The notes beneath the pieces were generated by a model. That model was given only the letters and a program-made list of their open reading frames with translations, was not told where the DNA came from and ran no database searches. This document shows, piece after piece, positions 666-41,275 of a DNA stretch of 64,000 nucleotides (positions are counted from its first letter, which is position 1; every line of letters starts with the position of its first letter). The DNA comes from a plasmid, in the NCBI RefSeq assembly GCF_054482525.1, contig NZ_JBTHVG010000003.1. The stretch is one strand, 5' to 3'. A program made the position numbers and the translations under genes.

Positions 666-800
666 ATGAAACTCGGATTTATTATAGGCGCTCTCTTTGC
701 AACATGGCTGACGCTAAATTATCCGGACCAGATGAGAAGTTATTTTACCAAAGCCGTCGACTATATCGAAAGTGTTGCAACATTTATTACATCCAAGTGA
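666..800 (+). CDS. Small hydrophobic ORF (44 aa) between traW and traU
   Basis: ATG at 666 overlaps the traW stop (TAATATG); translation MKLGFIIGALFATWLTLNYPDQ... has a predicted TM segment; its TGA at 798-800 sits 2 nt before the traU ATG. Below the ORF-track size cutoff. Confidence 0.25.
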   Translation: MKLGFIIGALFATWLTLNYPDQMRSYFTKAVDYIESVATFITSK

Positions 801-802
801 GC

Positions 803-1864
803 ATGATGGTGAAAAAATTCAAAAAGTTACTTTTAGAGTTCATTGTAGCAGTTATGCTTTCGCTTTCTATACCTGGTATGGCTATGGCAGCAGATGCTGG
901 AGTCCCTGGGGCTATGTGTCAGTCAGCTGGAGTGTGGCAGGGCTTGATTAAGAATATCTGTTGGAGCTGCATTTTTCCCATGAGGATAATGGGCATAGGG
1001 GCTGCTCCAGAAGGCGCTGCACCTTCACGTCCGGGTTGCTACTGCACAGATCAGAACGGCGTACCGGAAATAGGTTGGCAATTGAGCTTCTTTCAGCCGG
1101 TGAAGATTGTAGAAGTTGTAAAGAGCCCCTGGTGCAGCCCCTTTCTTGAAGGCACGATGCTTCAAAAATCGCAGTTTGATATTGGTAAAAGCAACACTAA
1201 TCAGCCAATGACAGCAACTGAAGCCGGATTTTACGATGTTCATCTTTGGGAGTTCCCAATCATGACAATGCTCAAATTACTGATTATTGGCGAGTGCACT
1301 GCTGAACCCTATATAGATGCCAGCCTGACCTATATAAGCGAAGTGGACCCTATGTGGGAAAGTGATCTGCTTACACTCGTCCTGAATCCCGAGGCAGTAG
1401 TTTTTGCAAACCCAATTGCCTCAATGGTGTGCGCTGCTGACTGTGTAGCAGTAACAGCAGGAAAGGATAATCTCGCTGCATACTTTTGTGCCGGATGCGA
1501 TGGCAACCTTTACCCATTAACCGGCCACATTTACGCAAATGATGACGCTGTAAGGACGAGTTCACTGATTACCCAGCGTCTTCTGACAAAACTACATCGC
1601 CAAGGCATGCTGATGCGAACGATGGGAGCAGACGCAATGTGTGAGAAAACGTGGGAATACTTTACACCACGTTCCCAGTATCGGCTTTCAATGCTTTTCC
1701 CTACTCCTGAGGCGAAGGGACCGGATTGCTGTCATCGTCTTGGTGATTCGGTACACGACTGGTCAACCCTTAAAGGTGGGCGCAAAAAAATAGGCAACGA
1801 TAATTATGTCTATATGTTGTGGCGTTACAATGACTGTTGTGTTCGCTACGTTCCAGGCGTTTGA
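803..1864 (+). CDS. traU: Conjugal transfer protein TraU/TrhU
   Basis: Signal peptide then conserved TraU blocks ICWSCIFP and LNPEAVVFANPIA...KLHRQGMLM; Cys-rich. Start moved to the internal ATG at 803 (ORF-track ORF 704..1864). Confidence 0.9.
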   Translation: MMVKKFKKLLLEFIVAVMLSLSIPGMAMAADAGVPGAMCQSAGVWQGLIKNICWSCIFPMRIMGIGAAPEGAAPSRPGCYCTDQNGVPEIGWQLSFFQPVKIVEVVKSPWCSPFLEGTMLQKSQFDIGKSNTNQPMTATEAGFYDVHLWEFPIMTMLKLLIIGECTAEPYIDASLTYISEVDPMWESDLLTLVLNPEAVVFANPIASMVCAADCVAVTAGKDNLAAYFCAGCDGNLYPLTGHIYANDDAVRTSSLITQRLLTKLHRQGMLMRTMGADAMCEKTWEYFTPRSQYRLSMLFPTPEAKGPDCCHRLGDSVHDWSTLKGGRKKIGNDNYVYMLWRYNDCCVRYVPGV

Positions 1865-1882
1865 TTTCTAAGGAGAAAATAA

Positions 1883-4800
1883 GTGAAACTTAGAAAAACA
1901 ATCACCTCAGCGATTATTGCATCAATGGTTGCCAATACTATGAGTTGGGCTTTTTATGTCACACTCATAAACATGGTAATGACACCACGTGTTTACGCTG
2001 CTGACGCTATATTTGACCAGCTCGAAAATAATTTTAACCTTGCAAATCCTAACGCAAATCGCAATGCAACCACCAGTGCTCAGGACATTGTGGAGAAATA
2101 CAAGAACGCGGATTCAGGCGAGAATGTCAGTGGGAAGATCACCGAGAAATACGTGGGTAAAGCCGAATCCGCTAATCTTAATCTCGGGAAGTATGGGGCA
2201 GGGAACTCTAATGAAAGTGTCATGAAAAATGCCGCATCCGATGGAAAGTCTATTGGTAGCGCCGTACAACTGCCGAGTATGTCTGGAGGGACAATCAATT
2301 CAAACTACACCAAGGAAGGGGCAAAGCTGCTCTCTCGTGATGCTAATGGCAACATTGGTATAAGCAGTAATCCCAATACTACTCCTGGAACCAAAACAAA
2401 TACGGGAGAGATTTTCAGCTCAGAGCAAAAGCACAGCGATATAAAGTTCAACGCCGCAGATCGTTATGGGGATGAGGATGGCTTTGTTAACGATATAAAG
2501 AATCGGAAAAGCCAGTTATTTGATGCTCAAAGTTATGATGGCGTTGCCTACCGCACCCTCGTAAATGCTAACAAGGACAACCCGGCATCGTCTGTAAAGC
2601 CTAACGATCCCATGTTTACTGCGGGGAGAAATGAGATAACCAATGCTGTTGCTGGTACTGGAAACTGGCTTCAGAACTGTAATGTTGAGACCTCCAAAAA
2701 AACAGTAACCACACACTATCCTGATTACAAAGAGTTCTACTGTAACTCGCCTAAGCAAGATAACTTCAGCAGCTGCACGATAACTCGTGACTTCTCTGTT
2801 CCTGTATACATTTCAGGCGGAAACGGAGACATGTCGATGTGCGGCGATAATTGTGTGCGTATATGGTTTGGTCGCCGTGATGACAACTACTGGAGTGACG
2901 GGGTATTTGATAACGAACTGACATTAAAATTCCATCCGGATGCAAAATTGGCCTCAGCAAAGATTGTTAACGCGGAGTGGGATGACCACATGCGGGTAAC
3001 ACTTGATGGCACGCAGATTTTTGCTCACATAGATGGTGCATATCGAGAAAGTGACTATCCGGCTCCAAAGGGATCTTGGGAGTTAAAAAAATCGTGGAAA
3101 CTCGACAAAGTATACGATGTAACTGAAAAGGTCAGAAAATCAGTTTATGAAGAACCTGATCGTGAAGTGACAATGGCATCCAGAGTCTGGGTTGGTGGGG
3201 GAGGTGAAGGGTACTTTGAGGTTGAGCTGACGTTTGAAAATATGAAGCTCGAAGATAAGCACGTCCAGGAACCAGCTGGTTGTTACGATGCTGTACAAAC
3301 ACCAAATACATTCTGCCGTTTCGATCGGTTTAAAGATATGGATGTTGGCACGAAGCGGCTTCCGGAAAGCGTGCTTTCTATGGCAAAGCCGCTGTATGAA
3401 GGCGATAAAGGCTTTCTTACCTGGAAGACTAACCTTGAAGGCTATTTTTGTGATCCATTGGCTAAAGACAAGATTTGCTCTTATGACGCCAGTGGGAAAA
3501 TTATGAAAGACGCTAATGGAAAGGACCTCTGTTACAACTACGAAGAAATTAAGAGTATGCCTGATGCATGTAGTTCTTATAAAAATGATGCAGCATGTGT
3601 ACTCGATAAACAAACATGTGCAGAGGGTTGGTTCGATGAGGGCACTAACAGCTGCTACATGTATGAACAGAAATACACCTGTGACAGAGGTAAGGATGTA
3701 GTTCGTGAGGTTGAATCTTCTACAAATGCCTGTGTTGGCATGATCCCATGTTCTGGAGGAACATGCGAAACTGGGCCAAAGGAAGAGAACAACGATTTTG
3801 GAAAAGTTGCGGCTTATTCAAACATGGTTCAGTACATGCAGGGCGAAGCCAAATGCGAAGACCCTAACGATGCCAATTCCTGTTCTGTCTTTGAAGGAAA
3901 ACCTGAATGGTGTGGTCGTTCAGTAGGCTTTGTAAATGGCCTGGCAAAGACGGACTGCTGCGAAGCACCGCAGGGAACCGCAGGAGCACTTGAAGGTATC
4001 ATGCTTGCCGGATCTATGATCAGAAACACTAACTGGACCAGAGTTAATGCTCAGCTAATAAAATGGACCGGCGGTGATACAGGTACATGGGCTTCTATGT
4101 CCAATGCGGTCGGTGAGTGGACTGCATCAGCTGGTAAAACAGTAGGGCAAATGTGGAACAATGTCACGAGCTCCTTAACGAGCGTATATGAAAACGTCGC
4201 TGGTAATCTAAGCAGGGCAGTTGGGTCTTCCGCAACTTCTGGAGGGGCAGGAGGTGCTGGCCAGTTGGCACAGGAAACAATGTCCAGCTTCGGTATAGGT
4301 CAGCTTAAGCAGATGGCAATGAAGAAAGCCTACGAATTGCTACCAGATACAGTTCGAGACTTTGTCTTTAAGAACGTTGCTACTACCGGAGGAGAGGTTG
4401 TCTTCTCGGCTGCGGTTCAAAACTTTATGCTTGCATTAAACGTGATCGGTTGGATTTATACAGCCTATCAGGTCACTAAAATGCTTTTAGAAATGTTGGT
4501 AGCATGCGACCAGAAAGAGATGGAAGCTTCTATTCATAAGAATCAAAAATCCTGTTTTACATTAGATACGGAACGATGCGTCAAATATCTGAATGTTGGT
4601 TTCACAAAGAAATGCGTTAAAAAAGCAACAGACATGTGCTGTTATAATTCCATGTTGTCACGCGTTATTATGCAACAAGCTTATCCGCAATTAGGAATAG
4701 ACCCTGTCGCCTCTAATTGCGTGGGGCTATCAATAAAGCAAATACAGCAACTGGATTTCGATAAAATTGATCTGACGGAGTGGATTAATGATGCAGTTCA

Positions 4801-5071
4801 GGTAGGAGAAGTTCCTGATCAATATTCAAAATTCTCCGAAGAATCAATTGTGGAAAACTTACCATTCCAGAATGAGAACTATCAACTTCCATCAGAACGT
4901 ACCAAGGAAGCAATGGGCGGTGAAGAAAATATGATAAAGGCCAGACAAGAAAATGCTCAGGCTATAAAAGAGGAAAATGTAGATTGTAGCTATTTACCTC
5001 GACCGGCCATATGTGAGGTAGGTTCAACTACGCTGGATCCGGTTACGGGCAAGCAGTTGCCGAAATATTGA
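1883..5071 (+). CDS. traN: Mating-pair stabilisation protein TraN/TrhN-like (1062 aa, Cys-rich)
   Basis: GTG start with AAGGAG RBS; N-terminal signal peptide; many conserved Cys pairs, C-terminal CC motif (KKATDMCCYNSMLSRV); directly follows traU; size matches the long TrhN-type proteins of IncHI/SXT-like elements. Confidence 0.8.
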   Translation: MKLRKTITSAIIASMVANTMSWAFYVTLINMVMTPRVYAADAIFDQLENNFNLANPNANRNATTSAQDIVEKYKNADSGENVSGKITEKYVGKAESANLNLGKYGAGNSNESVMKNAASDGKSIGSAVQLPSMSGGTINSNYTKEGAKLLSRDANGNIGISSNPNTTPGTKTNTGEIFSSEQKHSDIKFNAADRYGDEDGFVNDIKNRKSQLFDAQSYDGVAYRTLVNANKDNPASSVKPNDPMFTAGRNEITNAVAGTGNWLQNCNVETSKKTVTTHYPDYKEFYCNSPKQDNFSSCTITRDFSVPVYISGGNGDMSMCGDNCVRIWFGRRDDNYWSDGVFDNELTLKFHPDAKLASAKIVNAEWDDHMRVTLDGTQIFAHIDGAYRESDYPAPKGSWELKKSWKLDKVYDVTEKVRKSVYEEPDREVTMASRVWVGGGGEGYFEVELTFENMKLEDKHVQEPAGCYDAVQTPNTFCRFDRFKDMDVGTKRLPESVLSMAKPLYEGDKGFLTWKTNLEGYFCDPLAKDKICSYDASGKIMKDANGKDLCYNYEEIKSMPDACSSYKNDAACVLDKQTCAEGWFDEGTNSCYMYEQKYTCDRGKDVVREVESSTNACVGMIPCSGGTCETGPKEENNDFGKVAAYSNMVQYMQGEAKCEDPNDANSCSVFEGKPEWCGRSVGFVNGLAKTDCCEAPQGTAGALEGIMLAGSMIRNTNWTRVNAQLIKWTGGDTGTWASMSNAVGEWTASAGKTVGQMWNNVTSSLTSVYENVAGNLSRAVGSSATSGGAGGAGQLAQETMSSFGIGQLKQMAMKKAYELLPDTVRDFVFKNVATTGGEVVFSAAVQNFMLALNVIGWIYTAYQVTKMLLEMLVACDQKEMEASIHKNQKSCFTLDTERCVKYLNVGFTKKCVKKATDMCCYNSMLSRVIMQQAYPQLGIDPVASNCVGLSIKQIQQLDFDKIDLTEWINDAVQVGEVPDQYSKFSEESIVENLPFQNENYQLPSERTKEAMGGEENMIKARQENAQAIKEENVDCSYLPRPAICEVGSTTLDPVTGKQLPKY

Positions 5072-5099: not shown

Positions 5100-5972
5100 T
5101 TACTTGGCTTTCAATGTTTTTTCTGGGAAGCCTTTTTTACCGTATTCACCGGTAAAGAGGTAATAATCTTTTCCGTTGATGGAGGCTGCAACACCCCCTG
5201 GAGTTGTTGTATTTGGGCTATCAGAACGGAAAATGATACCCGAAAAATCAGCGCTTGTTTCGTTTCCTTTAAATGGGATGAACACATAACGAATTACAGC
5301 GTAATCACCAGCGGGAAGGTTTAGCTGAGGAATTTCGGTTCCTGTTGCGGGGCGAATCGCCTGAAAGCTGTACATTGAATCTGTAGGGAAAACATCAGCA
5401 TCAGGCTTAGAGGGCAGATCACAGGTACTCCATTTATTGACGACTGCCATATCAATTTTACATGTGGCCAGAGCTGCTTTCTGTTTTTCAGGGTTGTATC
5501 CAAATGAGGCCTGAGTTGCTTTTGTATGCTCAAAAACATACTTAGCTCCTTCACGTACCAAACTTTCATCATTGTAAGGCAATTTTTTTGGATTGGGGAC
5601 GAACACTAGGTATTGATTGACCTGGATGTATTCGGCGTCAGAAGAACTGTACAAAGAGCCGAGGCTCATGATCCCAAAACCTTTTAGACCGCCTGTTACG
5701 TAGCCCATCGAACTATTGATGAGATACTTAGAAAGAAAGTTGTCGGCATCCCCTCCAGGAGTAACCTCTTGCTCCTTAAAATTAACGTCGAAACCAGCAA
5801 ACGAATAGGCATTCTTGGCGACAGAATCATTTGCTTTAGCATGCCAGTACTGGCCGTGACTGTACGCATTCAGAGCGGTGCCTGGCGTAGTGCCGGTGTC
5901 ACCGGCACAACCCGATAGGGAAAAACCAATGACGACAGAAGAGACCAGAGATACTAAACGTAAAAGTTTCAT
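5100..5972 (-). CDS. Lipoprotein, unknown function
   Basis: Signal peptide with lipobox LSGC (MKLLRLVSLVSSVVIGFSLSGCAG); convergent with traN. Confidence 0.6.
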   Translation of the reverse strand: MKLLRLVSLVSSVVIGFSLSGCAGDTGTTPGTALNAYSHGQYWHAKANDSVAKNAYSFAGFDVNFKEQEVTPGGDADNFLSKYLINSSMGYVTGGLKGFGIMSLGSLYSSSDAEYIQVNQYLVFVPNPKKLPYNDESLVREGAKYVFEHTKATQASFGYNPEKQKAALATCKIDMAVVNKWSTCDLPSKPDADVFPTDSMYSFQAIRPATGTEIPQLNLPAGDYAVIRYVFIPFKGNETSADFSGIIFRSDSPNTTTPGGVAASINGKDYYLFTGEYGKKGFPEKTLKAK

Positions 5973-6151
5973 TTAAAGCCCTTTTTGTAATGTCTTTTGG
6001 AGATGGAACCATTATTCCATAGTCACGCGTTTCACAAACAACCTGATTGCATAAAAAAGGAAAAAAAGTGATTTCCAGTAGAACCAGCAGTACACAAGAA
6101 AAGCGCTTTTATAAAAATGTATAATTATTAAAACGAAGTAATGAGGTTGAA

Positions 6152-7936
6152 ATGGGTAAGCCAACAGAAGAGCAAAGACCTGTTATCGAGAATGCTAGCG
6201 CAAACAATATGGTGATAGCAGCGCCTGGATCAGGCAAATCATTCACCATGATAGAAGCGGTTATATCGATTCTCAAAAAGTATCCATATGCAAGAATCGG
6301 GATGGTGACCTTTACTCGCGCTGCAACAAACGCACTTGCAGCAAAGTTACAAAAGCGATTGAGCAAGAAGGATCTTGACCGGGTGCTGGTGGATACTTTT
6401 CACGGACTCGTTAAGAAGCAACTGGACATGATTCGCTGGCCGGGAAAGATGTTGATAGGGCCAGCACAGAGATCTGTCATTCACCGGGCTTTGAAAGAAT
6501 CCGGTGTAACGATGAAGTTTGCTGAAGCTGAATTCGTTATTGATGCTATCGGCAGAGAAATGGATACGGATGTGATTTCAGTTCGGCATAACAGACAACA
6601 GATCCATTTATTTAATACCTATCAGGCGTTATGCCAGAAAGACCATGTGGCGGACCTCAATGCTCTTTCAAAATTTGTTGTCGGTCAAATGCATTCGGGA
6701 AAAATGCGCACGTTAGATTTGACACATTTGATAGTAGACGAAGTTCAGGATACTGACTCTATACAATTCTCATGGATAGCATTGCATACAAGAGCTGGAG
6801 TCTATACGAGTATAGTTGGAGACGATGATCAGGCCATCTACTCCTTCAGATCCTCAGGAGGAGTCAAAATATTTCAACAGTTTGAAAAACACTTCAGACC
6901 TAACATATTTTACTTAAACACATGCTTTAGGTGTGAACCTGAAATTTTAGAGGTGGCCGGAGCACTGATAGGAAAGAATGTTTACCGTTATGCCAAAGAG
7001 TTACGCTCGGCAAAAAAGGGAGGAGGAAAGGTCACTTTTCGTTCATATGTAGATATGGAGGAACAGATACAGGGTATTTTAAGCCTTATAAATCAGGATC
7101 CACATGGATGGGCAATTCTAAGCCGCAATAATGCTCACTTGGATGAGCTAGAAAGTTTGATCGAACAGCCAGTAATTCGTTACGGAGGTAAATCATTCTG
7201 GGATGAAAAAGAAACAAGCGATGTGTTAAGCCTTATGGCCTTTTTCCGACAATCAAATGATCCTCGCTTAATGAAGAGAGTATTGGCATTGTTTGGAGAA
7301 CAGGAATCAGTTTTGGATGATGTGGCATTGAGTATGAGAGGAAGAAAAGTTACTTTTGGCGACCTTGCCATCCCGGAGGACAGTTCTCTCGAAACAAAAA
7401 CATTACATTCAAACTTCGTGCGCTTTACCCAGGAAAGTACTGATAAAGTTGAGATAGCAAAACGTTTCGCCAACCTTACGAAATGGATGGAATCGTCGTC
7501 AATCAAGATGAGGAGTAATAAAGGTACAGCAACCTTAACAAAAATTGCTTTAGACACTTGTAAACAGTGGGCAGAAAAGACTGGTTGGATGAATATGATC
7601 AATCGTGCTGCTGCAATGTCATTAGGCCCTAGGAAGAAGGACGAGGAATACAGCCCAGAGAAAGTAGTCCTATCAACCTTGCATGGTTCAAAGGGTCTTG
7701 AGTGGAATAAAGTAATAATAATGAGTTGTAATGCGGATCAGATACCAAGTAAAAGATCAGTTGGGGAGGAGGCAATAGAAGAAGAAAGACGTTTGCTTTA
7801 TGTTGGATTTACGCGTGCAGAAAAGCAACTTTTTGTAATGTGGTATGGTGACCCTTCTTTCTTTTTAAGAGAATGCAGTGAAGAAAAGATAAAAGAAGCA
7901 GCTAATATTCGAATTTCTCCAGTTTATACAGAATAA
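6152..7936 (+). CDS. UvrD/Rep/PcrA-like SF1 DNA helicase (594 aa), solitary
   Basis: Walker A AAPGSGKS, motif II LIVDEVQDTDS, motif III GDDDQAIYSFR, motif V VLSTLHGSKGLEWNKVII, motif VI YVGFTRAEKQL; GAGG RBS 5 nt upstream of the ATG. Confidence 0.85.
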   Translation: MGKPTEEQRPVIENASANNMVIAAPGSGKSFTMIEAVISILKKYPYARIGMVTFTRAATNALAAKLQKRLSKKDLDRVLVDTFHGLVKKQLDMIRWPGKMLIGPAQRSVIHRALKESGVTMKFAEAEFVIDAIGREMDTDVISVRHNRQQIHLFNTYQALCQKDHVADLNALSKFVVGQMHSGKMRTLDLTHLIVDEVQDTDSIQFSWIALHTRAGVYTSIVGDDDQAIYSFRSSGGVKIFQQFEKHFRPNIFYLNTCFRCEPEILEVAGALIGKNVYRYAKELRSAKKGGGKVTFRSYVDMEEQIQGILSLINQDPHGWAILSRNNAHLDELESLIEQPVIRYGGKSFWDEKETSDVLSLMAFFRQSNDPRLMKRVLALFGEQESVLDDVALSMRGRKVTFGDLAIPEDSSLETKTLHSNFVRFTQESTDKVEIAKRFANLTKWMESSSIKMRSNKGTATLTKIALDTCKQWAEKTGWMNMINRAAAMSLGPRKKDEEYSPEKVVLSTLHGSKGLEWNKVIIMSCNADQIPSKRSVGEEAIEEERRLLYVGFTRAEKQLFVMWYGDPSFFLRECSEEKIKEAANIRISPVYTE

Positions 7937-8330
7937 TTCGATATGGGCATTTACTTATGCTTAAAGCTATAGTATAAAAACAATGAGCTTAAATATCAGC
8001 TCCCAAATTTGAGTAACTTTGCTTAAAGTTACTTTCGCGTTAAGCGTTGATTTAGCCGTGAAAAGCGGCCAGCTTAAACAAGCTGTAAGACACCACCGGC
8101 AAAATGTCACCTTTGTCGCTGGTGCACTTCCCATGCCTGAAAAAGGCAATCTGAATTTACCAAACCGTAACTAATTTAGCTCCTCCTGGAGCTATTTTTG
8201 TTGCGTACTTCTAATGCCAGATAGTATAAATCAGGCGGTTCATAGCTTACGGGAGATGAATGACAGGCTTTGCCTTCGTGTTGAAACAAAAAATTGTTTC
8301 TTCCTTCTTACTATATATAGGTGACCCCAA

Positions 8331-9203
8331 ATGTCTAAAAATAAAGCTCGCAGTAAAGCCCTTCATCAAACCTTTAGTGAAATTATTCCAGAGATGGATA
8401 AGGCGCTAAACAAACAGCTCTTAGAAGTTCTGATGAAATATACAGAACGTGATAATGAACTGATTGTTATTTTGAATGAGGACGGCCCAAATATCATTGA
8501 ACTTAAGTCTCTTAAGCCTGTGTCGTTGTTGGCCGAAAAGCTTTCTGCTTATTCAAGCTATTATCATGTGGATGTTGTGGAGCTCGTGGTCAAGAAAATT
8601 GATTTCGAAGGAGCTTATAAGCTTCTTAAAGCTTCCCCAGATGTACCACTTTTTAAAAGCTTAACTGAACTGGATAAATATCTTGTTGAGGAGTTTGAAA
8701 AATACGGATTAAATTCATTTCTTGACGTGGATAATCTGGATTACTCACTTGAAAAAGCCAGTGAACTCAAAAATGAGCAGTTAATAAATTGGGTTTCGGA
8801 CATCATTTGCAAACGTGAAAAATTAACTTTACGTAAGCGTTTTGATGTCGCAGTAAAGGCCCACTACGAAAATGTAGAAAAAATGTATGATACCATTCGT
8901 CCGTTAATGAAAAAACTGGGTTTCCCAGAAGATCTCATGACGCACACCTTTAGTGAGTTAAGCGTTTTTGAAACTAAAGGATGGGACCATGCAATAAAAT
9001 CGAAAATTGAGACTCTCGCTAAGCGTGAAACTCAATATTTAGATGATGCGGCTAAAGCAGAGAATCGACGTCTTGTAACAGAGAAGTTGGAGAACTCTTT
9101 AGCGATTGCACCAACTAAACCAACAAGAAATTGGTTACATATTGCCGGAATTGCCTGTTTGGTAGTCTGCACGTTCATGTATGTAACTAATAAATTTATT
9201 TAA
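8331..9203 (+). CDS. Hypothetical protein with C-terminal membrane anchor
   Basis: 290-aa ORF, AT-rich codon usage, C-terminal hydrophobic helix WLHIAGIACLVVCTFMYV; no recognised motif. Confidence 0.5.
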   Translation: MSKNKARSKALHQTFSEIIPEMDKALNKQLLEVLMKYTERDNELIVILNEDGPNIIELKSLKPVSLLAEKLSAYSSYYHVDVVELVVKKIDFEGAYKLLKASPDVPLFKSLTELDKYLVEEFEKYGLNSFLDVDNLDYSLEKASELKNEQLINWVSDIICKREKLTLRKRFDVAVKAHYENVEKMYDTIRPLMKKLGFPEDLMTHTFSELSVFETKGWDHAIKSKIETLAKRETQYLDDAAKAENRRLVTEKLENSLAIAPTKPTRNWLHIAGIACLVVCTFMYVTNKFI

Positions 9204-9260
9204 TCCTGTTAAGGGGGAACCCTAACGGGGCTTCTCTTTGAACAAATCGAGGAGCGGAAA

Positions 9261-9638
9261 ATGTCATATCTTGAATATATCAATGAAGTAAAAGTGTCCG
9301 GGATAGTTATCAGTGCTGTGGAGAAAAAAATGACTGACCAGAGTATAGGTTTGTTAATAAAGCTCAAAAATAGGATGAAGACAGAAGTTGATGGTGAAAT
9401 CACTGAGAGAGAATTTTCAGTTCAAATCAAGGTGTCGCCTGAAATGTATTCAACCTGTTTCACTGGTATAAATCAGGGTGATGAGTTGATGGTCTCCGGT
9501 TATATTGTTGTCGATACTATTATGATTGAAGGGAGAGAACATCCTCTTGACTACATGAGAGTGGTAGCAACAAGTAAGTTGGCTCACATACCTAAACCTC
9601 TAAAAGGTTTTGGACAAAGTAGCTTTAATCAGATCTGA
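9261..9638 (+). CDS. Hypothetical protein, possible OB-fold ssDNA-binding-like
   Basis: 125 aa with GAGGAG RBS; beta-rich pattern loosely resembling SSB/PriB. Weak assignment. Confidence 0.4.
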   Translation: MSYLEYINEVKVSGIVISAVEKKMTDQSIGLLIKLKNRMKTEVDGEITEREFSVQIKVSPEMYSTCFTGINQGDELMVSGYIVVDTIMIEGREHPLDYMRVVATSKLAHIPKPLKGFGQSSFNQI

Positions 9639-9658
9639 CATTAAACCCACCCTAAAGG

Positions 9659-9689
9659 GGAGAAATCCCTTCATGGGATTTCTCCTTTT
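9659..9689 (+). terminator. Intrinsic terminator-like hairpin
   Basis: GGAGAAATCCC-TTCAT-GGGATTTCTCC perfect 11-bp stem followed by TTTT; lies between ORFs 9261..9638 and 9699..10676. Confidence 0.6.
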
Positions 9690-9698
9690 GGAGTCCCC

Positions 9699-10676
9699 AT
9701 GAAACAAAAATTTAGGGCTACTGCAATAAGTAGTAATCAACTTAGTTTTTTTTCTATACTCGATATAGATGAAGATGAAATAACGCAAATAGTTGATTCA
9801 CCCAAAGAGCATTTAAATGATGCTTACACGTCCGGATTAAACTTTAAATCAGAAGAAAGTAACATTTCTGAGATAAATTATGATTCTGAAAGGCGTGAAA
9901 ATCACCTTTATGAAAAATCCAAATTACTTAAAAATCAGATTTTGCATACAATTAATTTTGCAGCAGAAACAGATTATCTATATACGGTTGAAGAATATAA
10001 CCCAGATTTGGGTGGTCTGGTAATAGAATGGACCCCTGAGGATGTGTATGTTGTTTTTCTATCCGCTATGGAAGAGTCTTTGGAAATCATTAAAGAACTA
10101 GTGTTGAGGAGAAAGTTATTCTTCAAAGATGACAATGGTAATATCACAGTGAATCCACTTTTAGAAGCTGAAACACGGTGGTATATGTCAAAATCATTTG
10201 AATACACTTGTTTATGTCATGGACTTGATGCATGTGAATTTAGAGCGGAATTAAAATCATGGCTCTATTATCATTCGCATCGTTCGATTAGTGAAAACAC
10301 GAAATTAGCTGAATGCAGGAATGATGATGAAATCATTTTGCATGATTGCAATGACGATATGGGCTGGGACATCTTCTTTGATCAGGATTATTTAATGTCA
10401 GAAAAAAAACTGGCTGTTAAATGGACTGACAGGGAAATTATGGATGTTTACATAAAAGCTTTTAAATCCACATTAGAGTTGTTTGACGAGCTTGTTTCAT
10501 GTGATCTGTTAACTAAACGAAACGCTTTTGGCAAGTTAGAAATCAATCCAATATTCGAAAATCATTTTGAATGGATCATGTCTGAAGCTTTTGAAATAGT
10601 GGGAAATCATCTTGGTTATAATGTGCCTCAAATCAGGAAACTGATGGCAACTATTTGCCAAATGAATCTCAAATAA
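9699..10676 (+). CDS. Hypothetical protein
   Basis: 325-aa ORF, GGAG RBS, no recognised motif. Confidence 0.5.
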   Translation: MKQKFRATAISSNQLSFFSILDIDEDEITQIVDSPKEHLNDAYTSGLNFKSEESNISEINYDSERRENHLYEKSKLLKNQILHTINFAAETDYLYTVEEYNPDLGGLVIEWTPEDVYVVFLSAMEESLEIIKELVLRRKLFFKDDNGNITVNPLLEAETRWYMSKSFEYTCLCHGLDACEFRAELKSWLYYHSHRSISENTKLAECRNDDEIILHDCNDDMGWDIFFDQDYLMSEKKLAVKWTDREIMDVYIKAFKSTLELFDELVSCDLLTKRNAFGKLEINPIFENHFEWIMSEAFEIVGNHLGYNVPQIRKLMATICQMNLK

Positions 10677-10733
10677 AATGCCACTGGCAAACATCTGCCA
10701 GAGGGCGGTGTTTGCATTTTACCGGAGTTAAAA

Positions 10734-11792
10734 ATGTCTAATGCCGCTATGAAGTTAAATGAAACATCTTCTGATGCTTATGAAAAATTAGAAGCTCTTC
10801 TTTCCCCGGATGTTATAAAGTTAAAACATTATGTGGATAAAGGTGAGTATCTTTTAGTTCTAGCAAAGGACCTTTTTGGTATTCCAGAAATGGATCCAAA
10901 GATGGCTGTGCCTGTTTTCAAAACTAAAACCTCGTATCGAGCTCCGCTGAACAAAGACTACATACCAAATCCCCGAATACTTGAACAAGTGGTTAAACTG
11001 CTTATCAGTCCGGATATAGATTTAAGTGTGTGTCTTAAAGGTGAGTCCGGTTCTGGCAAGACTGAAATGGTAATGTACATTAGCCACATGATGAATTGGC
11101 CGCTGACAATTAAGCAGATCAACAGCAATATTCGAGTTGATGAGCTTGAAGGTGAGCGCAGTCTTAATGGTGGTAATACAGGTTTTGTACACAGCGATTT
11201 GGTAACGGGATTTCGTAATGGTCACCTCATTCTTCTGGATGAAGTGGACAAAATCGATCCTGATACGGCAGCAAAACTTCACATGCCCATTGAACGTAAG
11301 CCCTGGTCACTCAGTGCTAATGGTGGTGAGGTTATAACTGCTAATGGCTACACGCGATTTATTGGTACTGCAAACACAAACATGAGTGGAGGCGCTCGCC
11401 GGTTCGTTTCTTCTCAACGTCAAGATGCAGCTTTTATAAAGCGGTTCTTGATAGTTGAAATGGAGAAGCCCGACAAAGTTGCTTTAACCAATGTGCTTAC
11501 TAAACGATATAGCTCTTTGCCTTTTCAGGTCATTGAGAAGTTCGTAAGAGTAGCGATTGCAGTAAATGACTCTGGTACAGAAGACAGTGTGATGGATATT
11601 CGTCAATTAGTAGCTTGGGTTGGCACGTCGATGACGTTAAAAACCTTTAGTCTTCTTGACACTTTCAAAATAGCTTTTGCTTCTGCTTTACCTTTACATG
11701 TGGTCGATCTTGTTCTTCAAGCTATAGATCTTTCTCTTGGCGAAGACAAGGATAAATCGCTGGAGTATTTCACAGCAAAAAAGTCGAGTTAG
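10734..11792 (+). CDS. AAA+ ATPase, CobS-like/MoxR-like
   Basis: Walker A GESGSGKTEM, Walker B LILLDEVDK, about 350 aa as in the CobS-like ATPases of conjugative elements and phages. Confidence 0.8.
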   Translation: MSNAAMKLNETSSDAYEKLEALLSPDVIKLKHYVDKGEYLLVLAKDLFGIPEMDPKMAVPVFKTKTSYRAPLNKDYIPNPRILEQVVKLLISPDIDLSVCLKGESGSGKTEMVMYISHMMNWPLTIKQINSNIRVDELEGERSLNGGNTGFVHSDLVTGFRNGHLILLDEVDKIDPDTAAKLHMPIERKPWSLSANGGEVITANGYTRFIGTANTNMSGGARRFVSSQRQDAAFIKRFLIVEMEKPDKVALTNVLTKRYSSLPFQVIEKFVRVAIAVNDSGTEDSVMDIRQLVAWVGTSMTLKTFSLLDTFKIAFASALPLHVVDLVLQAIDLSLGEDKDKSLEYFTAKKSS

Positions 11793-12109
11793 ATGGGATT
11801 TGTTATGAAACCTCTGATATTTGTATCTCAGAGTTATCCCATCTTGAATTTAGTGCGTTTTTAAGTACGGATGGTGCTGCTACCATTGCTATAGCAAAAA
11901 ACGGAACTAATTTTACTGGACTTATGCAACTGAATAACGACTATTCTTTATTGTTTTATCATGATGGTAAAATAAATATGGAAGGTCTGATTAAACAAAT
12001 GGAATTAAAAGGTTATATGTATCAGGGAGCAATGGGCAATGATGATGTTGTTGCTGAGTTTCCCGGTATTCTTTTAATTTCACCAGAGAAGCTTTAATAT
12101 CAACCCTAT

Positions 12110-12150
12110 CGGGAAATCTTTCCCGTTGGGGAGGGTTTCCCCTTTTTTTT
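12110..12150 (+). terminator. Tandem hairpins with T8 tract
   Basis: CGGGA-AATCTT-TCCCG then GGGG-AGGGTTT-CCCC followed by TTTTTTTT, immediately before the GGAG RBS of the next gene. Confidence 0.6.
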
Positions 12151-12160
12151 GGAGAAACCC

Positions 12161-13288
12161 ATGACTTTAAATACTTCAATGCTTAACAAAGTATCTGCAA
12201 AACAAATCTCTGAGAATTTTGCAAAATCATATCCAGATTTACTGGAAGGTGCAGTTATAACAAAAATTGAAATAAGTGGCTGTCAAGGATCGCGTCGAAC
12301 CGATAAAATCGATTTGTCTTATGATGGAGATGATATTACGGATCAAAAAAGCGTATCTAAAAGCGAAGTACGCTGGATTGACATAAAAGCCCTTAGCTTC
12401 AAAAGTACGATTACCAGCAGAATATCAACTCTTTGCTCACGCTTGTGCATCCGCTATAGCAATATGTGGATTTTACCAGTATCCAGTATGGAAGAGTTTC
12501 TGGAAGGGGCCCAAGAGATTGAACGAGAGTTTCAGGCAGGTATTCAAAACGTTGTAGACAATTATGAGATGCATATTGAGGCTGAAAAAAATAGAAGCCC
12601 AAGAATGTCTTCTTTGATTGATCAGTTGAAATTAACTAAAGATGATTTCATAAAATCCTTTAGATTTAATATTGCTCACTTTATTCCTTTTACGCCTATT
12701 AGCGTTGAAGGTGATGAAACCCAGGACTACTATCAGGAACAATTGATAACAGATCTGGCAGAAGAAGCAATGAAGGTTTATGAAAAAATTAGCAAAAATA
12801 ACAATTTGCGCTCAAGTACTATTGACCGACTGAAGCAAATGCAAAATAAGATCATTAGCTTCATGTTTATACATAAAGAGGCGGCAGTACTTGCAGAAGC
12901 TATAAAACACATAATGAATAATTTACCTAAAGGTGCCATTTCTGAACCTCGCGACGTTGCGGTGTTACAGCAGTGGTTTTATTTCATGAGTGATGCTTCA
13001 ATGTTAAAGCGTATTATTTCAGGAGAGCAAAAGGTTACTGACTGGTTGGAATCTATTACCAGATCATTTAATCAAAGCTCACAAACAGAACCGAACGCGC
13101 TACAGAACACAGGTATTGAAGCTATTTTAGATTCAACAAATGTGTTCCAGGTTGAACCTGTCGTAGAGAACGATATAAATAACAGCACGTTTTCAAACAC
13201 TGATCCTGTAGCTGAACCTGAGAAATCAGTTTCGCAACAGGAAGACAATGTTGAAAATGGTTTTGATATCGAGCTCAAAGGCTGGTAA
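12161..13288 (+). CDS. Hypothetical protein (between the AAA+ and vWA genes)
   Basis: Start moved to the ATG at 12161 with a GGAG RBS (the ORF-track TTG start at 12149 lies inside the terminator T-tract); no recognised motif. Confidence 0.5.
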   Translation: MTLNTSMLNKVSAKQISENFAKSYPDLLEGAVITKIEISGCQGSRRTDKIDLSYDGDDITDQKSVSKSEVRWIDIKALSFKSTITSRISTLCSRLCIRYSNMWILPVSSMEEFLEGAQEIEREFQAGIQNVVDNYEMHIEAEKNRSPRMSSLIDQLKLTKDDFIKSFRFNIAHFIPFTPISVEGDETQDYYQEQLITDLAEEAMKVYEKISKNNNLRSSTIDRLKQMQNKIISFMFIHKEAAVLAEAIKHIMNNLPKGAISEPRDVAVLQQWFYFMSDASMLKRIISGEQKVTDWLESITRSFNQSSQTEPNALQNTGIEAILDSTNVFQVEPVVENDINNSTFSNTDPVAEPEKSVSQQEDNVENGFDIELKGW

Positions 13289-13308
13289 CTGTTTGCTTTA
13301 TTAAAAAC

Positions 13309-13350
13309 CCCAGATGGGTACTTCACCATCTGGGTGAGTACCCCTTTTTT
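13309..13350 (+). terminator. Terminator-like element with two mutually exclusive stems
   Basis: CCCAGATGG / CCATCTGGG stem overlaps an alternative GGGTAC / GTACCC stem, followed by T6. Confidence 0.55.
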
Positions 13351-13365
13351 ATAAAGAGGTATTCT

Positions 13366-15378: not shown

Positions 15379-15393
15379 TAAACTCTACCCAAT

Positions 15394-15422
15394 CGGGGCA
15401 AAAGGCCCCGGTGGGTCTTTTT
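15394..15422 (+). terminator. Terminator-like hairpin
   Basis: CGGGGC-AAAAG-GCCCCG stem, T5 tract a few nt downstream. Confidence 0.5.
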
Positions 15423-15449
15423 GCTCCATGAAGGAATAAGGAGCAAAAT

Positions 15450-15671
15450 ATGACTCAGATAAAAACTTACCGTGTAGAACATGAAAAAGTCGGTGCGATG
15501 CATAAAGTCCGTATTTTCGGACGTGTTGGTGAAGTTATAAGCAATGATAGCCCTCAGGAAAGAATCTTCCGCGAAGTCACTATAGCGGAGGGTAATAGCC
15601 AGCAGGCTGCGTTACTTGTAGATAACTACATACAGTGTCTTGAGAATAATGGCTTCACGACTGAAGCATAA
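15450..15671 (+). CDS. Small hypothetical protein (73 aa)
   Basis: TAAGGAG RBS 6 nt upstream of the ATG; bracketed by terminator hairpins. Confidence 0.45.
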   Translation: MTQIKTYRVEHEKVGAMHKVRIFGRVGEVISNDSPQERIFREVTIAEGNSQQAALLVDNYIQCLENNGFTTEA

Positions 15672-15676
15672 ATGTT

Positions 15677-15700
15677 GAGGGCCCCCGGGCCCTCTTTCTT
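15677..15700 (+). terminator. Terminator-like hairpin
   Basis: GAGGGCCC-CCG-GGCCCTC followed by a T-rich run. Confidence 0.55.
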
Positions 15701-15784
15701 AAATTCTGCGTTGTGGGTTTCTCCCTGTCTTCTGCACCGCAGAAGGCATTGAGAAACTCACAATGCCAGATAAGAGAGATCATC

Positions 15785-29594: not shown

Positions 29595-30677
29595 ATGCGT
29601 AAGAGTTATACATTTGGTATTCCATTTGGACTCCAGCGAGAATCAGGACTCTTTTTAGATATTACAGAGGTCAGCCGGGGTATTGACTGTAACTGCATCT
29701 GCCCCGCTTGCAAAACTGATCTGTTAGCAAAGCAGGGGGAGGTCAAGCTTTGGCATTTCTCACACAGTACAGCTGTAGCCGGTGACTGTGATGGTCTGAT
29801 GGAAGCCATCCGGGGAAAGATTATTGAAGTCATCAACGAGCACCAGGTTCTTGGTTTCCCAAATCTTCTCGCTGGCGACGATGGTGGGCCGGTTTCACTG
29901 AATGAGGTTAGTGGAAGCGGCAGTATGTTCGGAGGCACAGCTGATCTGTTCGTAAAGGTTAATGATTTATGTGTGGCCGTCTTTCTGGACAGGGATCGCA
30001 GCATTTCAGAGAAGTTAACCTTTGACCATCTTCATCCTTCCGAAAGAGTTGCCGCATTGCGTATCGATCTTCCTGATATTGAATATGAAATCAGTCAGGT
30101 GCAGCTCGGGCGACGTAAAACAACATACAGTGAGTGCATTGAAAGCCTGATCATTGATGAGACCAGTTCCCGGGAATGGCTATATCATCCATTAATGCAT
30201 GAACTTGAATCTGAACCTCTTCAGGAGTATCGGGGACGGGAGCCTTCAGAGGAAGGGCCTCTTCTTCAGCGCCTTGCTGACTGTAAGATGAAATTGCCTG
30301 ATATCCTTCCGGGCAGTCATAACGCGCTAGTCAGGTTACAGCAGGATACGATTGTATGTCTGTGTCGGTTAACGGTTCGGGCTTATGACATCGCTCAGAC
30401 CGATGAATTTCCTTTGTTCCTTCGCTATTTCAGGTTGCACTGCCTGGAAAACAGCGAACATGTCAGTTACGAAAGACTGATCTGCTGGCAGGAAATGATT
30501 TCAAAAACCCAGGAAGGCCAGTCCTTGACACAAAACGAACTTGAATATCTTCATGAGATTGTCCGCATCGCCTTTTACAATCACCGGCTTAACAATGTCA
30601 GTATTTCAGATGTTAAAAACCATGACACTGGAAAGAAGAGCGGCAGGGTAGAGTCACAAAATTATTCACTTTTATAA
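29595..30677 (+). CDS. CoiA-like zinc-finger protein, solitary
   Basis: N-terminal motif CNCICPACKTDLLAKQGEVKLWHFSH matches the C-x-C-P-x-C-K...HF-x-H signature also seen in the protein at 60984..61970; start moved to the ATG at 29595. Confidence 0.5.
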   Translation: MRKSYTFGIPFGLQRESGLFLDITEVSRGIDCNCICPACKTDLLAKQGEVKLWHFSHSTAVAGDCDGLMEAIRGKIIEVINEHQVLGFPNLLAGDDGGPVSLNEVSGSGSMFGGTADLFVKVNDLCVAVFLDRDRSISEKLTFDHLHPSERVAALRIDLPDIEYEISQVQLGRRKTTYSECIESLIIDETSSREWLYHPLMHELESEPLQEYRGREPSEEGPLLQRLADCKMKLPDILPGSHNALVRLQQDTIVCLCRLTVRAYDIAQTDEFPLFLRYFRLHCLENSEHVSYERLICWQEMISKTQEGQSLTQNELEYLHEIVRIAFYNHRLNNVSISDVKNHDTGKKSGRVESQNYSLL

Positions 30678-32343: not shown

Positions 32344-32368
32344 ATTGATCACCGAAGAAGCGTATCCC

Positions 32369-41274: not shown

Positions 41275-41275
41275 T

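What the first reader, a model, noticed from the sequence alone, without database searches (positions are those of the whole stretch)
6152..7936. Second, solitary UvrD-like helicase next to the transfer operon
A 594-aa SF1 helicase with the same motif set as the 58948..60987 helicase stands alone, with no nuclease partner in its operon. It may be an accessory helicase of the conjugative element or the orphaned half of a helicase-nuclease pair like the one at 59-62 kb.
Basis: seen in the sequence. Interest (0 to 1): 0.4.

Follow-up and report, generated by a model that had tools for sequence, protein, structure and literature searches.

The report
Known IncHI plasmid helicase TrhI
This gene is trhI, the already named UvrD-like helicase carried by the IncHI family of large antibiotic-resistance plasmids; it is intact and conserved, but it is an ordinary, catalogued backbone gene and not a leftover half of a helicase-nuclease pair.

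Summary
The ORF at 6152..7936 (+) is real: 594 aa, ATG start, GAGG ribosome-binding site, and every SF1A helicase motif intact. The window is an IncHI2 plasmid. About 1,100 plasmid records carry this protein at 99% identity or more, most annotated "trhI: IncHI-type conjugal transfer helicase TrhI". R27 and pHCM1 (IncHI1) carry an 82% identical orthologue in the same position.

It is not housekeeping UvrD or Rep, since it scores far below their curated cut-offs. It is only 24% identical to the 58948..60987 helicase. No nuclease partner appears in any of 11 distinct contexts examined.

Relatives down to about 29% identity sit in large plasmids. Seven of the eight that PLSDB typed carry a MOBH relaxase. 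The helicase lies next to the T4SS genes (TraU/TraN), next to the relaxase and TraD, or at the head of an SSB, AAA_5, DUF3150, VWA and Toprim module.

The IncHI2 MobH relaxase has no helicase domain. I infer that TrhI is the element's accessory 3'-5' DNA motor for conjugative single-strand processing; this was not tested.

The family lacks UvrD's separation pin, GIG duplex-binding motif and C-terminal domain.

Novelty: already known. Interest: low.

The parts
6152..7936 (+). trhI: 594-aa SF1A (UvrD/Rep/PcrA-fold) helicase, 'IncHI-type conjugal transfer helicase TrhI'
   Evidence: ORF and translation. Pfam UvrD-helicase + UvrD_C. About 1,100 plasmid records at 99% identity or more, most annotated trhI. 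AlphaFold2 model with mean pLDDT 92.5 whose best PDB matches are UvrD, Rep and PcrA.
5973..6151 (+). 179-bp AT-rich (32% GC) divergent intergenic region holding the presumed trhI promoter (TATAAT at 6120-6125) and ribosome-binding site (GAGG at 6143-6146)
   Evidence: Read from the sequence. The consensus promoter scan did not exceed chance, so the promoter is inferred only. IS1 and Tn9/Tn21 insert at this spacer in IncHI1 plasmids.
8177..8204 (+). terminator-like GC hairpin followed by a T run, 240 nt after the trhI stop codon
   Evidence: 7-bp stem with 4 GC pairs, then TTTTTGTT. This is a consensus match only, and such sites were no more frequent than expected from shuffles. It fits the separate regulation of trhI (R0003) and R0002/R0001 in R27.
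704..5071 (+). trhU (704..1864) and trhN (1883..5071), the last genes of the Tra2 'AN' mating-pair-formation operon upstream of trhI
   Evidence: Pfam TraU and F_T4SS_TraN; annotation. In R27 the AN operon is defined as htdA to trhN.
5100..5972 (-). 290-aa lipoprotein gene that separates trhN from trhI; not a helicase partner
   Evidence: Signal peptide with lipobox LSGC. Annotated 'lipoprotein' in pHCM1 and R27. 43% identical to its IncHI1B counterpart and not detectable next to distant TrhI homologues.
8331..9203 (+). 290-aa protein with a C-terminal membrane anchor (R27 R0002 orthologue), first gene of the downstream module
   Evidence: In R27, R0002 is 9-fold higher at 25 C and 61-fold higher in the htdA mutant.
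9261..9638 (+). 125-aa cryptic SSB/PriB-like OB-fold protein (R27 R0001 orthologue)
   Evidence: No Pfam or PHROG match. The AlphaFold2 model (mean pLDDT 85) has SSB or PriB structures as nearly all of its top 50 PDB matches. Canonical SSB genes lie in the same module as TrhI homologues in distant plasmids.
9699..17017 (+). rest of the conserved module that travels with trhI: acidic 325-aa protein, AAA_5 ATPase (10734..11792), DUF3150 (12149..13288), VWA protein (13366..15378), DUF7146/Toprim protein (15713..17017)
   Evidence: Pfam; annotation. The same gene set lies beside TrhI homologues in L002, L004, L016, L021, L022, L023 and L024. It corresponds to the R27 'cluster of 9 genes R0204 to R0002' that is induced at the conjugation-permissive temperature.

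Best explanation
The gene is trhI, the backbone UvrD-family (SF1A) helicase of IncHI plasmids, here on an IncHI2 plasmid. It is a complete, catalytically competent-looking ATP-driven DNA motor with the four-subdomain UvrD/Rep/PcrA fold. It is trimmed relative to UvrD: it has no beta-hairpin separation pin, no GIG duplex-binding motif in subdomain 2B, and no C-terminal domain.

The most likely role is an accessory motor for the plasmid's single-strand DNA transactions during conjugation. The MOBH relaxase of these plasmids has no helicase of its own. TrhI, translocating 3'-5' like its relatives, would then do one or both of two things:
- help peel the nicked strand from oriT in the donor, as PcrA does for helicase-less relaxases and rolling-circle initiators;
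- clear proteins and secondary structure from the transferred strand so it can be converted to duplex in the recipient, as host UvrD does.

Host UvrD or Rep can probably substitute, so the gene would be helpful rather than essential.

Shown here: identity, fold, motif integrity, purifying selection, conserved linkage to MOBH-type conjugation and ssDNA-handling genes, and absence of a helicase domain in the relaxase. Inferred: polarity, substrate, site of action (donor or recipient) and dispensability.
For: **Identity.**
- The 4.3-kb region is at least 99% identical in 1,115 plasmid records, and the listed records annotate the gene trhI.
- tblastn finds 1,100 records at 99% protein identity or more, and 278 at 80-90%, the listed ones including pHCM1 (82%). 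R27 carries the identical protein WP_000517883.1.

**Fold and motifs.**
- Pfam matches, invariant catalytic residues.
- AlphaFold2 mean pLDDT 92.5, with top Foldseek hits UvrD, Rep and PcrA at TM about 0.7.

**Selection.** pN 0.11 against pS 0.83 compared with IncHI1, with no indels.

**Conserved linkage to conjugation.**
- In marine contigs a homologue of about 35% identity starts 2 nt after the traU stop codon.
- It lies after TraU-TraN in L002, L014, L016, L023 and L024.
- It lies in the same-strand cluster TraI(MOBH)-TraD-DUF4400-ATPase-helicase in a Burkholderia plasmid that has an MPF_T secretion system.
- It lies beside MobH-TraD-DUF4400 in X. citri.
- Seven of eight PLSDB-typed carrier plasmids are MOBH.
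- 1,832 of 2,129 carrier plasmids are predicted conjugative.

**The relaxase lacks a motor.** IncHI2 MobH (1,048 aa) matches only Pfam TraI_2 and has no Walker A or DExx box.

**ssDNA-handling neighbours.**
- SSB, or an SSB/PriB-like OB fold, plus a Toprim protein accompany the helicase.
- In R27 that downstream cluster is induced up to 23-fold at the conjugation-permissive temperature.
- R27 trhI rises 8.7-fold in the derepressed htdA mutant.

**Precedent.** Recipient UvrD ATPase activity is needed for single- to double-strand conversion of incoming plasmids. Its GIG motif (G419T), R396 and C-terminal domain are dispensable for that (PMC10085688). These are the same features TrhI lacks.
Against: - I could not retrieve any experiment on TrhI. 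Lawley et al. 2003, the R27 Tra2 mutagenesis paper, is not held. As I recall its abstract, trhI is not among the 11 essential or 3 modulating Tra2 genes; this is from memory and unverified.
- R27 trhI is not thermoregulated (560 against 494 units at 25 and 37 C). The pilus genes and the downstream cluster are, which suggests a role not restricted to mating.
- Derepression in the htdA mutant is shared by 139 of 181 expressed R27 genes, so it is weak evidence.
- Natural knock-outs exist: an IS903B insertion in pA74T, a frameshifted Klebsiella copy, and several truncated protein clusters.
- V. gigantis p1 keeps the helicase and the module but is typed non-mobilizable.
- The Rts1 paper (MOBH12) lists 32 genes required for efficient conjugation, and its main text never mentions a helicase. 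A plasmid helicase is therefore not a general requirement of MOBH systems.
Confidence: 0.5

Rival explanations
1. TrhI is a vegetative plasmid-maintenance helicase and has no specific conjugation role. It would be a plasmid-borne Rep/UvrD-like accessory motor that helps replication forks through protein or transcription roadblocks, or strips RecA from plasmid DNA, on these plasmids of roughly 180-320 kb. Its position next to tra genes would be historical.
For: - R27 trhI is expressed equally at 25 C and at 37 C, where conjugation is shut off.
- It is transcriptionally separate from both the AN operon and the thermoregulated downstream cluster.
- The non-mobilizable V. gigantis plasmid retains it.
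- Large insertions between trhN and trhI are tolerated.
- Host helicase genes such as uvrD are cited as targets of compensatory evolution to plasmid carriage (PMC9599605 discussion).
Against: - Linkage to MOBH relaxase/TraD or to T4SS genes persists down to about 29% identity, across different replicons and two MPF types.
- In marine contigs the gene starts 2 nt after traU.
- No linkage to rep or par genes was seen in any context.
- Naturally disrupted copies sit in otherwise maintained plasmids.
Confidence: 0.25
2. TrhI is the orphaned helicase half of a helicase-nuclease system, either Gabija-like (GajB without GajA) or like the pair at 59-62 kb. It would have lost its nuclease partner, or would act in defence or anti-defence.
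For: - PADLOC GajB profiles match the full length (best E 3e-42).
- Sister-clade short UvrD-like helicases occur in a defence-island-like context next to a type III restriction-modification system.
- The same plasmid carries a second helicase with an overlapping upstream gene that has a weak CoiA_N match.
Against: - The GajB matches are generic. The housekeeping Rep and UvrD profiles score higher (180 and 175 bits), and the second helicase matches GajB models just as well.
- No neighbour matches GajA or any PADLOC, Pfam or PHROG nuclease family.
- No nuclease is paired with the helicase in 11 distinct contexts.
- TrhI and the 59-kb helicase are 24% identical and in separate clades.
- No GajB chain appears among the top 50 structural matches.
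Confidence: 0.04
3. TrhI is a captured copy of a housekeeping helicase (uvrD, rep or helD) with no element-specific function.
For: The closest characterised proteins by sequence and fold are UvrD, Rep and PcrA.
Against: - Scores are far below the equivalog cut-offs: Rep 180 against 951, UvrD 175 against 1,144, PcrA 158 against 911 bits.
- Identity to E. coli UvrD and Rep is 21-25%.
- It forms a clade of its own together with other plasmid helicases.
- It lacks the pin, the GIG motif and the C-terminal domain.
- It is conserved under purifying selection on plasmids.
Confidence: 0.02

Closest known systems
TrhI of IncHI1 plasmids R27 and pHCM1 (R27 ORF R0003, 'DNA helicase'; RefSeq name 'IncHI-type conjugal transfer helicase TrhI')
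   Same: 82% amino-acid identity, the same length (594 aa) and no indels. The synteny is identical: trhU, trhN, lipoprotein (opposite strand), trhI, three small genes, AAA_5, DUF3150, VWA, Toprim. The window's own protein is the IncHI2 allele, annotated under that name in most of about 1,100 records.
   Different: Nothing of substance. Synonymous sites are saturated between the IncHI1 and IncHI2 alleles.
E. coli UvrD (helicase II), Rep, and Bacillus/Geobacillus PcrA (SF1A 3'-5' helicases)
   Same: All SF1A motifs are shared. The alignment runs end to end with UvrD residues 12-614. The four-subdomain fold matches at TM about 0.7.
   Different: - 21-25% identity, far below the curated orthologue cut-offs.
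- The roughly 13-residue separation-pin hairpin (UvrD Y621 region) is deleted in all 15 family members aligned.
- GIG (G417-I418-G419) is replaced by G-E-Q, and R396 by A.
- Subdomain 2B is shorter, and the C-terminal domain (UvrD 648-720) is absent.
PcrA working with the helicase-less relaxase NicK of ICEBs1, and with rolling-circle Rep initiators (a functional analogue, not a family claim)
   Same: A relaxase or initiator without its own motor relies on a separate SF1A helicase to unwind from the nick. This rests on my own knowledge and on the abstract of PMC3542172 listed. IncHI2 MobH likewise lacks a motor.
   Different: In those systems the helicase is host-encoded and essential. Here it is element-encoded and probably dispensable. 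No HelP-like processivity factor was identified.
Recipient UvrD function in plasmid establishment (Shen et al. 2023, PMC10085688)
   Same: That function needs UvrD's ATPase activity but not its GIG/R396 duplex binding or its C-terminal domain. This is the same minimal feature set that TrhI retains.
   Different: That function belongs to a host protein already present in the recipient. TrhI would have to be expressed early from the incoming plasmid or be transported with the DNA, and neither has been shown.
Relaxase-fused conjugative helicases (F TraI, R388 TrwC; SF1B RecD-like)
   Same: They are element-encoded helicases dedicated to conjugative DNA processing.
   Different: They are SF1B (5'-3') motors fused to a MOBF relaxase. 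TrhI is a free-standing SF1A protein. It matches the RecD-type profile AAA_30 only below threshold (18 against 27 bits).
GajB of the Gabija defence system
   Same: A UvrD-like SF1A helicase of similar length, with profile matches at E 3e-42.
   Different: There is no GajA partner and no defence context. The similarity is no better than to housekeeping helicases.

Membership tests
SF1A UvrD/Rep/PcrA-like helicase superfamily | Conserved helicase motifs Q, I (Walker A), Ia, II (DExx), III, IV, V and VI | tested here: met
   Q8; AAPGSGKS 23-30; D196-E197; Q227; R260; TLHGSKGLEW 507-517; R555. These are invariant or nearly invariant in alignments A1 and A2.
SF1A UvrD/Rep/PcrA-like helicase superfamily | Four-subdomain fold (1A, 1B, 2A, 2B) | tested here: met
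   AlphaFold2 mean pLDDT 92.5 and pTM 0.86. Foldseek top hits are UvrD, Rep and PcrA at TM 0.65-0.72. Domain boundaries map across from UvrD.
SF1A UvrD/Rep/PcrA-like helicase superfamily | 3'-5' translocation on ssDNA with ATP-dependent unwinding | not testable with these tools
   Inferred from homology only; needs biochemistry.
Housekeeping UvrD, Rep or PcrA orthologue | Score above the NCBIfam equivalog cut-off | tested here: not met
   Rep 180 against 951 bits, UvrD 175 against 1,144, PcrA 158 against 911.
Housekeeping UvrD, Rep or PcrA orthologue | Separation-pin beta-hairpin, GIG duplex-binding motif in 2B, and (for UvrD) the C-terminal domain | tested here: not met
   The pin is deleted, GIG is replaced by GEQ, R396 by A363, and the protein ends 8 residues after the position matching UvrD 647.
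TrhI (IncHI-type conjugal transfer helicase) | Close sequence identity to proteins annotated TrhI on IncHI plasmids | tested here: met
   99-100% to RefSeq TrhI of IncHI2 plasmids; 82% to TrhI of R27 and pHCM1.
TrhI (IncHI-type conjugal transfer helicase) | Position at the end of transfer region Tra2, after trhU, trhN and the lipoprotein gene | tested here: met
TrhI (IncHI-type conjugal transfer helicase) | Demonstrated contribution to conjugative transfer | not testable with these tools
   No experimental paper was retrievable. The name appears to be homology-based.
Gabija (GajA + GajB) | Adjacent GajA (OLD-family ATPase/Toprim nuclease) gene | tested here: not met
   No PADLOC hit for any neighbour. 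The neighbours are a lipoprotein and a membrane-anchored protein.
Helicase-nuclease pair like 58948..61988 | Close relationship to that helicase and an overlapping or adjacent nuclease-like partner | tested here: not met
   24% identity and separate clades. Distant TrhI-family helicases match TrhI about 20-30 orders of magnitude better than they match the 59-kb helicase. No conserved partner was found.
Relaxase-fused SF1B conjugative helicase (TraI_F / TrwC) | RecD-like SF1B motor fused to a relaxase domain | tested here: not met
   The protein is free-standing. AAA_30 scores only 18 bits against a 27-bit cut-off. The relaxase is a separate MobH protein.

The most novel reading that the evidence does not exclude
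TrhI is not a generic spare helicase. It would be the lead enzyme of a conserved, self-sufficient 'incoming-strand processing kit' of MOBH megaplasmids: a pin-less, GIG-less ssDNA translocase, an SSB/PriB-like protein, an AAA_5/DUF3150/VWA complex and a Toprim primase-like protein. This kit would replace the recipient's UvrD-dependent single- to double-strand conversion step and make establishment independent of host helicases. The loss of the pin, the GIG motif and the C-terminal domain would mark specialisation for clearing RecA, SSB or hairpins from ssDNA rather than unwinding duplex.
Probability: 0.2. Interest if true: 0.5.

Novelty: already known. Interest (0 to 1): 0.15.

Why it matters
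IncHI plasmids are major carriers of multidrug, colistin (mcr) and heavy-metal resistance in Salmonella, E. coli, Enterobacter and Klebsiella, so their backbone genes are of practical interest. TrhI itself is long named and automatically annotated, so this sighting adds nothing categorically new.

Two modest points could guide an experimenter:
- The TrhI family is a trimmed UvrD-type motor. What it lacks relative to UvrD (pin aside) matches the features shown to be dispensable for plasmid establishment.
- The family tracks MOBH relaxases, which lack a helicase, across Enterobacterales, Vibrio, Xanthomonas and Burkholderia plasmids. It is often accompanied by SSB-like and primase-like genes whose R27 orthologues are co-induced with conjugation but remain uncharacterised.

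Tried and rejected
**Literature**
- Six full-text searches found no functional study of TrhI.
- The key R27 Tra2 mutagenesis paper (PMC145343) is not held.
- A DUF3150 search returned one irrelevant preprint.

**Promoters, terminators, RNA and repeats**
- The promoter and terminator scan gave counts no higher than shuffled sequence (8 against 7.5, and 4 against 3.3). The promoter and terminator are therefore only suggestions.
- Rfam found no RNA family anywhere in the window.
- The flanking spacers hold only one 9-nt inverted repeat.

**Defence reading**
- The PADLOC GajB hits were examined and judged generic.

**Search for a partner**
- BLAST of all neighbours across loci found homologues only between IncHI2 and the IncHI1B-type locus L002.
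- The ORFs immediately upstream of the X. citri and B. ambifaria helicases are unrelated to each other and to anything in the IncHI loci.

**Other**
- The N. gonorrhoeae tblastn hit is a 738-aa ORF of housekeeping helicase size on a mislabelled chromosome record. I discarded it.
- dN/dS could not be computed because synonymous sites are saturated, so only pN and pS are reported.
- The neighbour-joining tree has no bootstrap support and no GajB sequences. It supports only the coarse separation of clades.
Full report
**Observation**

A GAGG ribosome-binding site lies at 6143-6146 and a perfect TATAAT hexamer at 6120-6125. Pfam matches UvrD-helicase (E 9e-33) and UvrD_C (E 4e-32).

The gene is physically solitary. 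The upstream gene, 5100..5972, is on the opposite strand. A 179-bp spacer of 32% GC precedes trhI and a 394-bp spacer follows it. That second spacer holds a terminator-like hairpin at 8177-8194. The scan's site counts did not exceed shuffled controls, so this hairpin is only a suggestion.

**Identity**

A megablast of 5000-9300 against PLSDB found 1,398 plasmid records, 1,115 of them at 99% identity or more. The listed records annotate the gene "trhI: IncHI-type conjugal transfer helicase TrhI".

The window is an IncHI2 plasmid with a MOBH relaxase and an MPF_F secretion system. trhI follows trhU, trhN and a lipoprotein gene at the end of transfer region Tra2. IncHI1 plasmids pHCM1 and R27 carry an 82% identical protein of the same length in identical synteny. 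In R27 it is ORF R0003, labelled "trhI, DNA helicase". The finding is therefore a correct sighting of a catalogued gene.

**What kind of helicase it is**

TrhI aligns end to end with E. coli UvrD residues 12-614. It scores far below the curated orthologue cut-offs: Rep 180 against 951 bits, UvrD 175 against 1,144, PcrA 158 against 911.

All catalytic residues are invariant across the family: K29, D196/E197, Q227, R260 and R555. An AlphaFold2 model built on a 97-sequence alignment is confident, with mean pLDDT 92.5 and pTM 0.86. Its best PDB matches are UvrD, Rep and PcrA at TM about 0.7, and no GajB chain appears in the top 50.

Mapping UvrD onto the alignment shows four family-wide differences:
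- The roughly 13-residue beta-hairpin around Y621, the separation pin, is deleted in all 15 family members aligned.
- The 2B GIG motif (G417-I418-G419) is G-E-Q, and R396 is alanine.
- Subdomain 2B is shorter.
- The C-terminal domain is missing.

The assignment of these UvrD elements to duplex separation, duplex binding and RNA polymerase binding rests on my knowledge of the UvrD structural literature and on the mutants described in PMC10085688.

**Relation to the second helicase in the window**

BLASTP gives 24% identity over 411 aa plus the motif V-VI block. In a rough neighbour-joining tree, TrhI and its plasmid relatives form their own clade. The 58948..60987 helicase falls outside that clade, on the side of the tree that holds UvrD, Rep and PcrA.

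Distant TrhI-family helicases from Xanthomonas and Burkholderia plasmids match window TrhI at E 4e-56 and 1e-41. They match the other helicase only at 2e-25 and 6e-22. The two genes share a superfamily and nothing closer.

**Is there a partner?**

The IncHI neighbours are:
- 5100..5972 (-): a lipoprotein with lipobox LSGC.
- 8331..9203: a 290-aa protein with a C-terminal membrane anchor.
- 9261..9638: a 125-aa protein.
- 9699..10676: a very acidic 325-aa protein.

None matches a nuclease or defence family in Pfam, NCBIfam, PADLOC or PHROGs. These neighbours are recognisably conserved only between IncHI2 and the IncHI1B-type locus.

I examined 11 distinct contexts of homologues from 82% down to about 29% identity. 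In none is a nuclease gene paired with the helicase. The only nearby PD-(D/E)XK gene, in X. citri, is on the opposite strand inside an SSB-containing module. The 'orphaned half of a helicase-nuclease pair' reading is rejected.

**What travels with the gene**

Three associations recur.

1. T4SS genes. A homologue of about 35% identity in 180-260 kb marine contigs starts 2 nt after the traU stop codon. Others follow TraU-TraN.
2. The relaxosome genes.
   - In a Burkholderia ambifaria plasmid with an MPF_T secretion system, the helicase closes a same-strand cluster: TraI(MOBH), TraD, DUF4400, ATPase, helicase.
   - In X. citri pLH201.1 it lies beside MobH-TraD-DUF4400.
3. A downstream module of SSB, AAA_5, DUF3150, VWA and DUF7146/Toprim.
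   - The module is present in IncHI1, IncHI1B and IncHI2 plasmids, in two Vibrio plasmids, in X. citri and in a further set of contigs.
   - Where insertions occur, they fall between trhN and trhI, and the helicase stays with the module. Examples are IS1 in pHCM1, Tn9/Tn21 in IncHI1 PST6 plasmids, and IS200/605 elements plus a toxin-antitoxin pair in a Klebsiella plasmid.

Seven of the eight carrier plasmids typed by PLSDB have a MOBH relaxase. Of 2,129 carrier plasmids, 1,832 are predicted conjugative.

The IncHI module seemed to lack an SSB. However, the 125-aa ORF at 9261..9638 folds (mean pLDDT 85) into an OB domain, and nearly all of its top 50 PDB matches are SSB or PriB. JGI names some members of its cluster 'primosomal replication protein N'.

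**Expression data from the literature (R27)**

The AN operon is defined as htdA to trhN. trhI (R0003) is expressed alike at 25 and 37 C (560 against 494 units). It rises 8.7-fold in the derepressed htdA mutant, as do most plasmid genes.

[quoted passage not shown] The R27 record confirms that R0002 and R0001 are the orthologues of 8331..9203 and 9261..9638. trhI is therefore transcriptionally separate from both neighbouring units, which bears out 'stands alone'.

**Selection and dispensability**

Against the IncHI1 allele there are 0.11 non-synonymous and 0.83 synonymous differences per site, with no indels. The protein is under purifying selection.

Disrupted copies nonetheless occur: IS903B in pA74T, a three-piece frameshifted copy in a Klebsiella plasmid, and several clusters of truncated proteins. 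The gene is useful but not indispensable for plasmid survival.

**Mechanism**

The IncHI2 MobH relaxase (1,048 aa) matches only the TraI_2 relaxase domain. It has no Walker A or DExx box. Some other motor must therefore separate the strands at oriT.

Helicase-less relaxases and rolling-circle initiators are known to use an SF1A helicase of the PcrA/UvrD type. This rests on my own knowledge and on the abstract of PMC3542172.

Separately, recipient UvrD is needed to convert incoming plasmid ssDNA to duplex. That function requires the ATPase but not the GIG motif, R396 or the C-terminal domain (PMC10085688). A 2026 preprint attributes it to melting a hairpin roadblock in the F leading region. TrhI retains the motor and lacks those dispensable parts.

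My best reading, at confidence about 0.5, is that TrhI is an accessory and host-redundant 3'-5' motor for conjugative single-strand DNA processing. It could act in the donor at the nick, in the recipient on the incoming strand, or in both.

The main rival, at about 0.25, is a vegetative maintenance helicase. That reading is favoured by the temperature-independent expression and by retention of the gene in a non-mobilizable Vibrio plasmid. Defence-related and housekeeping readings are unlikely.

**Limits**

- No experiment on TrhI could be retrieved, and the name seems to be homology-based.
- The Rts1 paper (MOBH12) lists 32 genes required for efficient conjugation and its main text never mentions a helicase. 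A plasmid helicase is therefore not a general MOBH requirement.
- The tree is crude.
- Context sampling covers 11 distinct loci and is not a census.

**Verdict**

Noticed in passing
window 9261..9638 (+): This 125-aa 'hypothetical protein' has no Pfam or PHROG match. It is predicted with confidence to be an SSB/PriB-like OB fold with a conserved C-terminal tail, PKPxKGFGxSSFxQ. Its R27 orthologue R0001 is 8.9-fold higher at 25 C and 19-fold higher in the htdA mutant. It looks like a cryptic plasmid ssDNA-binding protein.
   Followed up: yes
window 8331..17017 (+): This module comprises a membrane-anchored protein, the SSB-like protein, an acidic protein, AAA_5, DUF3150, VWA and DUF7146/Toprim. 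It corresponds to the R27 'cluster of 9 genes R0204 to R0002', which is induced up to 23-fold at the conjugation-permissive temperature and has unknown function. The same module accompanies TrhI homologues in Vibrio, Xanthomonas and Klebsiella plasmids.
   Followed up: partly
window 5100..5972 (-): A lipoprotein gene (lipobox LSGC) is wedged on the opposite strand between trhN and trhI. Its R27 orthologue R0004 reads about 9,800 units on the microarray, against 560 for trhI and 190 for trhN.
   Followed up: partly
window 9699..10676 (+): A very acidic 325-aa protein (59 D+E against 34 K+R) with an apparent internal duplication: 'EWTPEDVYVVFLSAMEESLEIIKELV' and 'KWTDREIMDVYIKAFKSTLELFDELV'. It has no family match. 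It might be a DNA mimic or anti-restriction-type protein, but this was not tested.
   Followed up: no
window 58948..61988 (-): The second UvrD-like helicase (679 aa) overlaps by 4 nt with an upstream 334-aa gene. That gene's only match is a sub-threshold CoiA_N hit (24.2 against 26.3 bits). The helicase keeps an insertion at the separation-pin position and has a C-terminal extension, unlike TrhI. A CoiA_N protein also occurs, without a helicase, on the marine TrhI contig at L003 15476..16552 (-).
   Followed up: partly
L019 4027..9122 (metagenome-assembled genome contig GCA_028873515.1): A sister-clade short UvrD-like helicase (P0119) sits in a four-gene cassette: a 336-aa protein, the helicase, a T2SSE-type ATPase and a 396-aa protein. 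The cassette lies next to a CbtA toxin and a type III restriction-modification system. It may be an uncharacterised defence cassette.
   Followed up: no
L009 4625..13538 (IncHI2 Tra1 region of pSTM6-275, outside the window): In IncHI2, the relaxase operon mobH-traD-hyp-DUF4400 is followed by an S49 peptidase and a NERD (nuclease-related domain) protein. In Burkholderia and Xanthomonas MOBH plasmids, the TrhI-family helicase lies next to the corresponding MobH-TraD-DUF4400 cluster instead.
   Followed up: partly
window 53980..57000 and 62601..63950: Accessory genes are scattered around the second helicase: a HipA toxin (53980..55305), two HNH_2 endonuclease-domain ORFs (56097..56912 and 62601..62939), and a plasmid H-NS (63546..63950, - strand).
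   Followed up: no
window ~30000..50000: GC content rises to 0.48-0.54 across the tellurite-resistance (ter) region, against 0.35-0.45 in the transfer and backbone part that holds trhI. This suggests the two parts have different origins.
   Followed up: no
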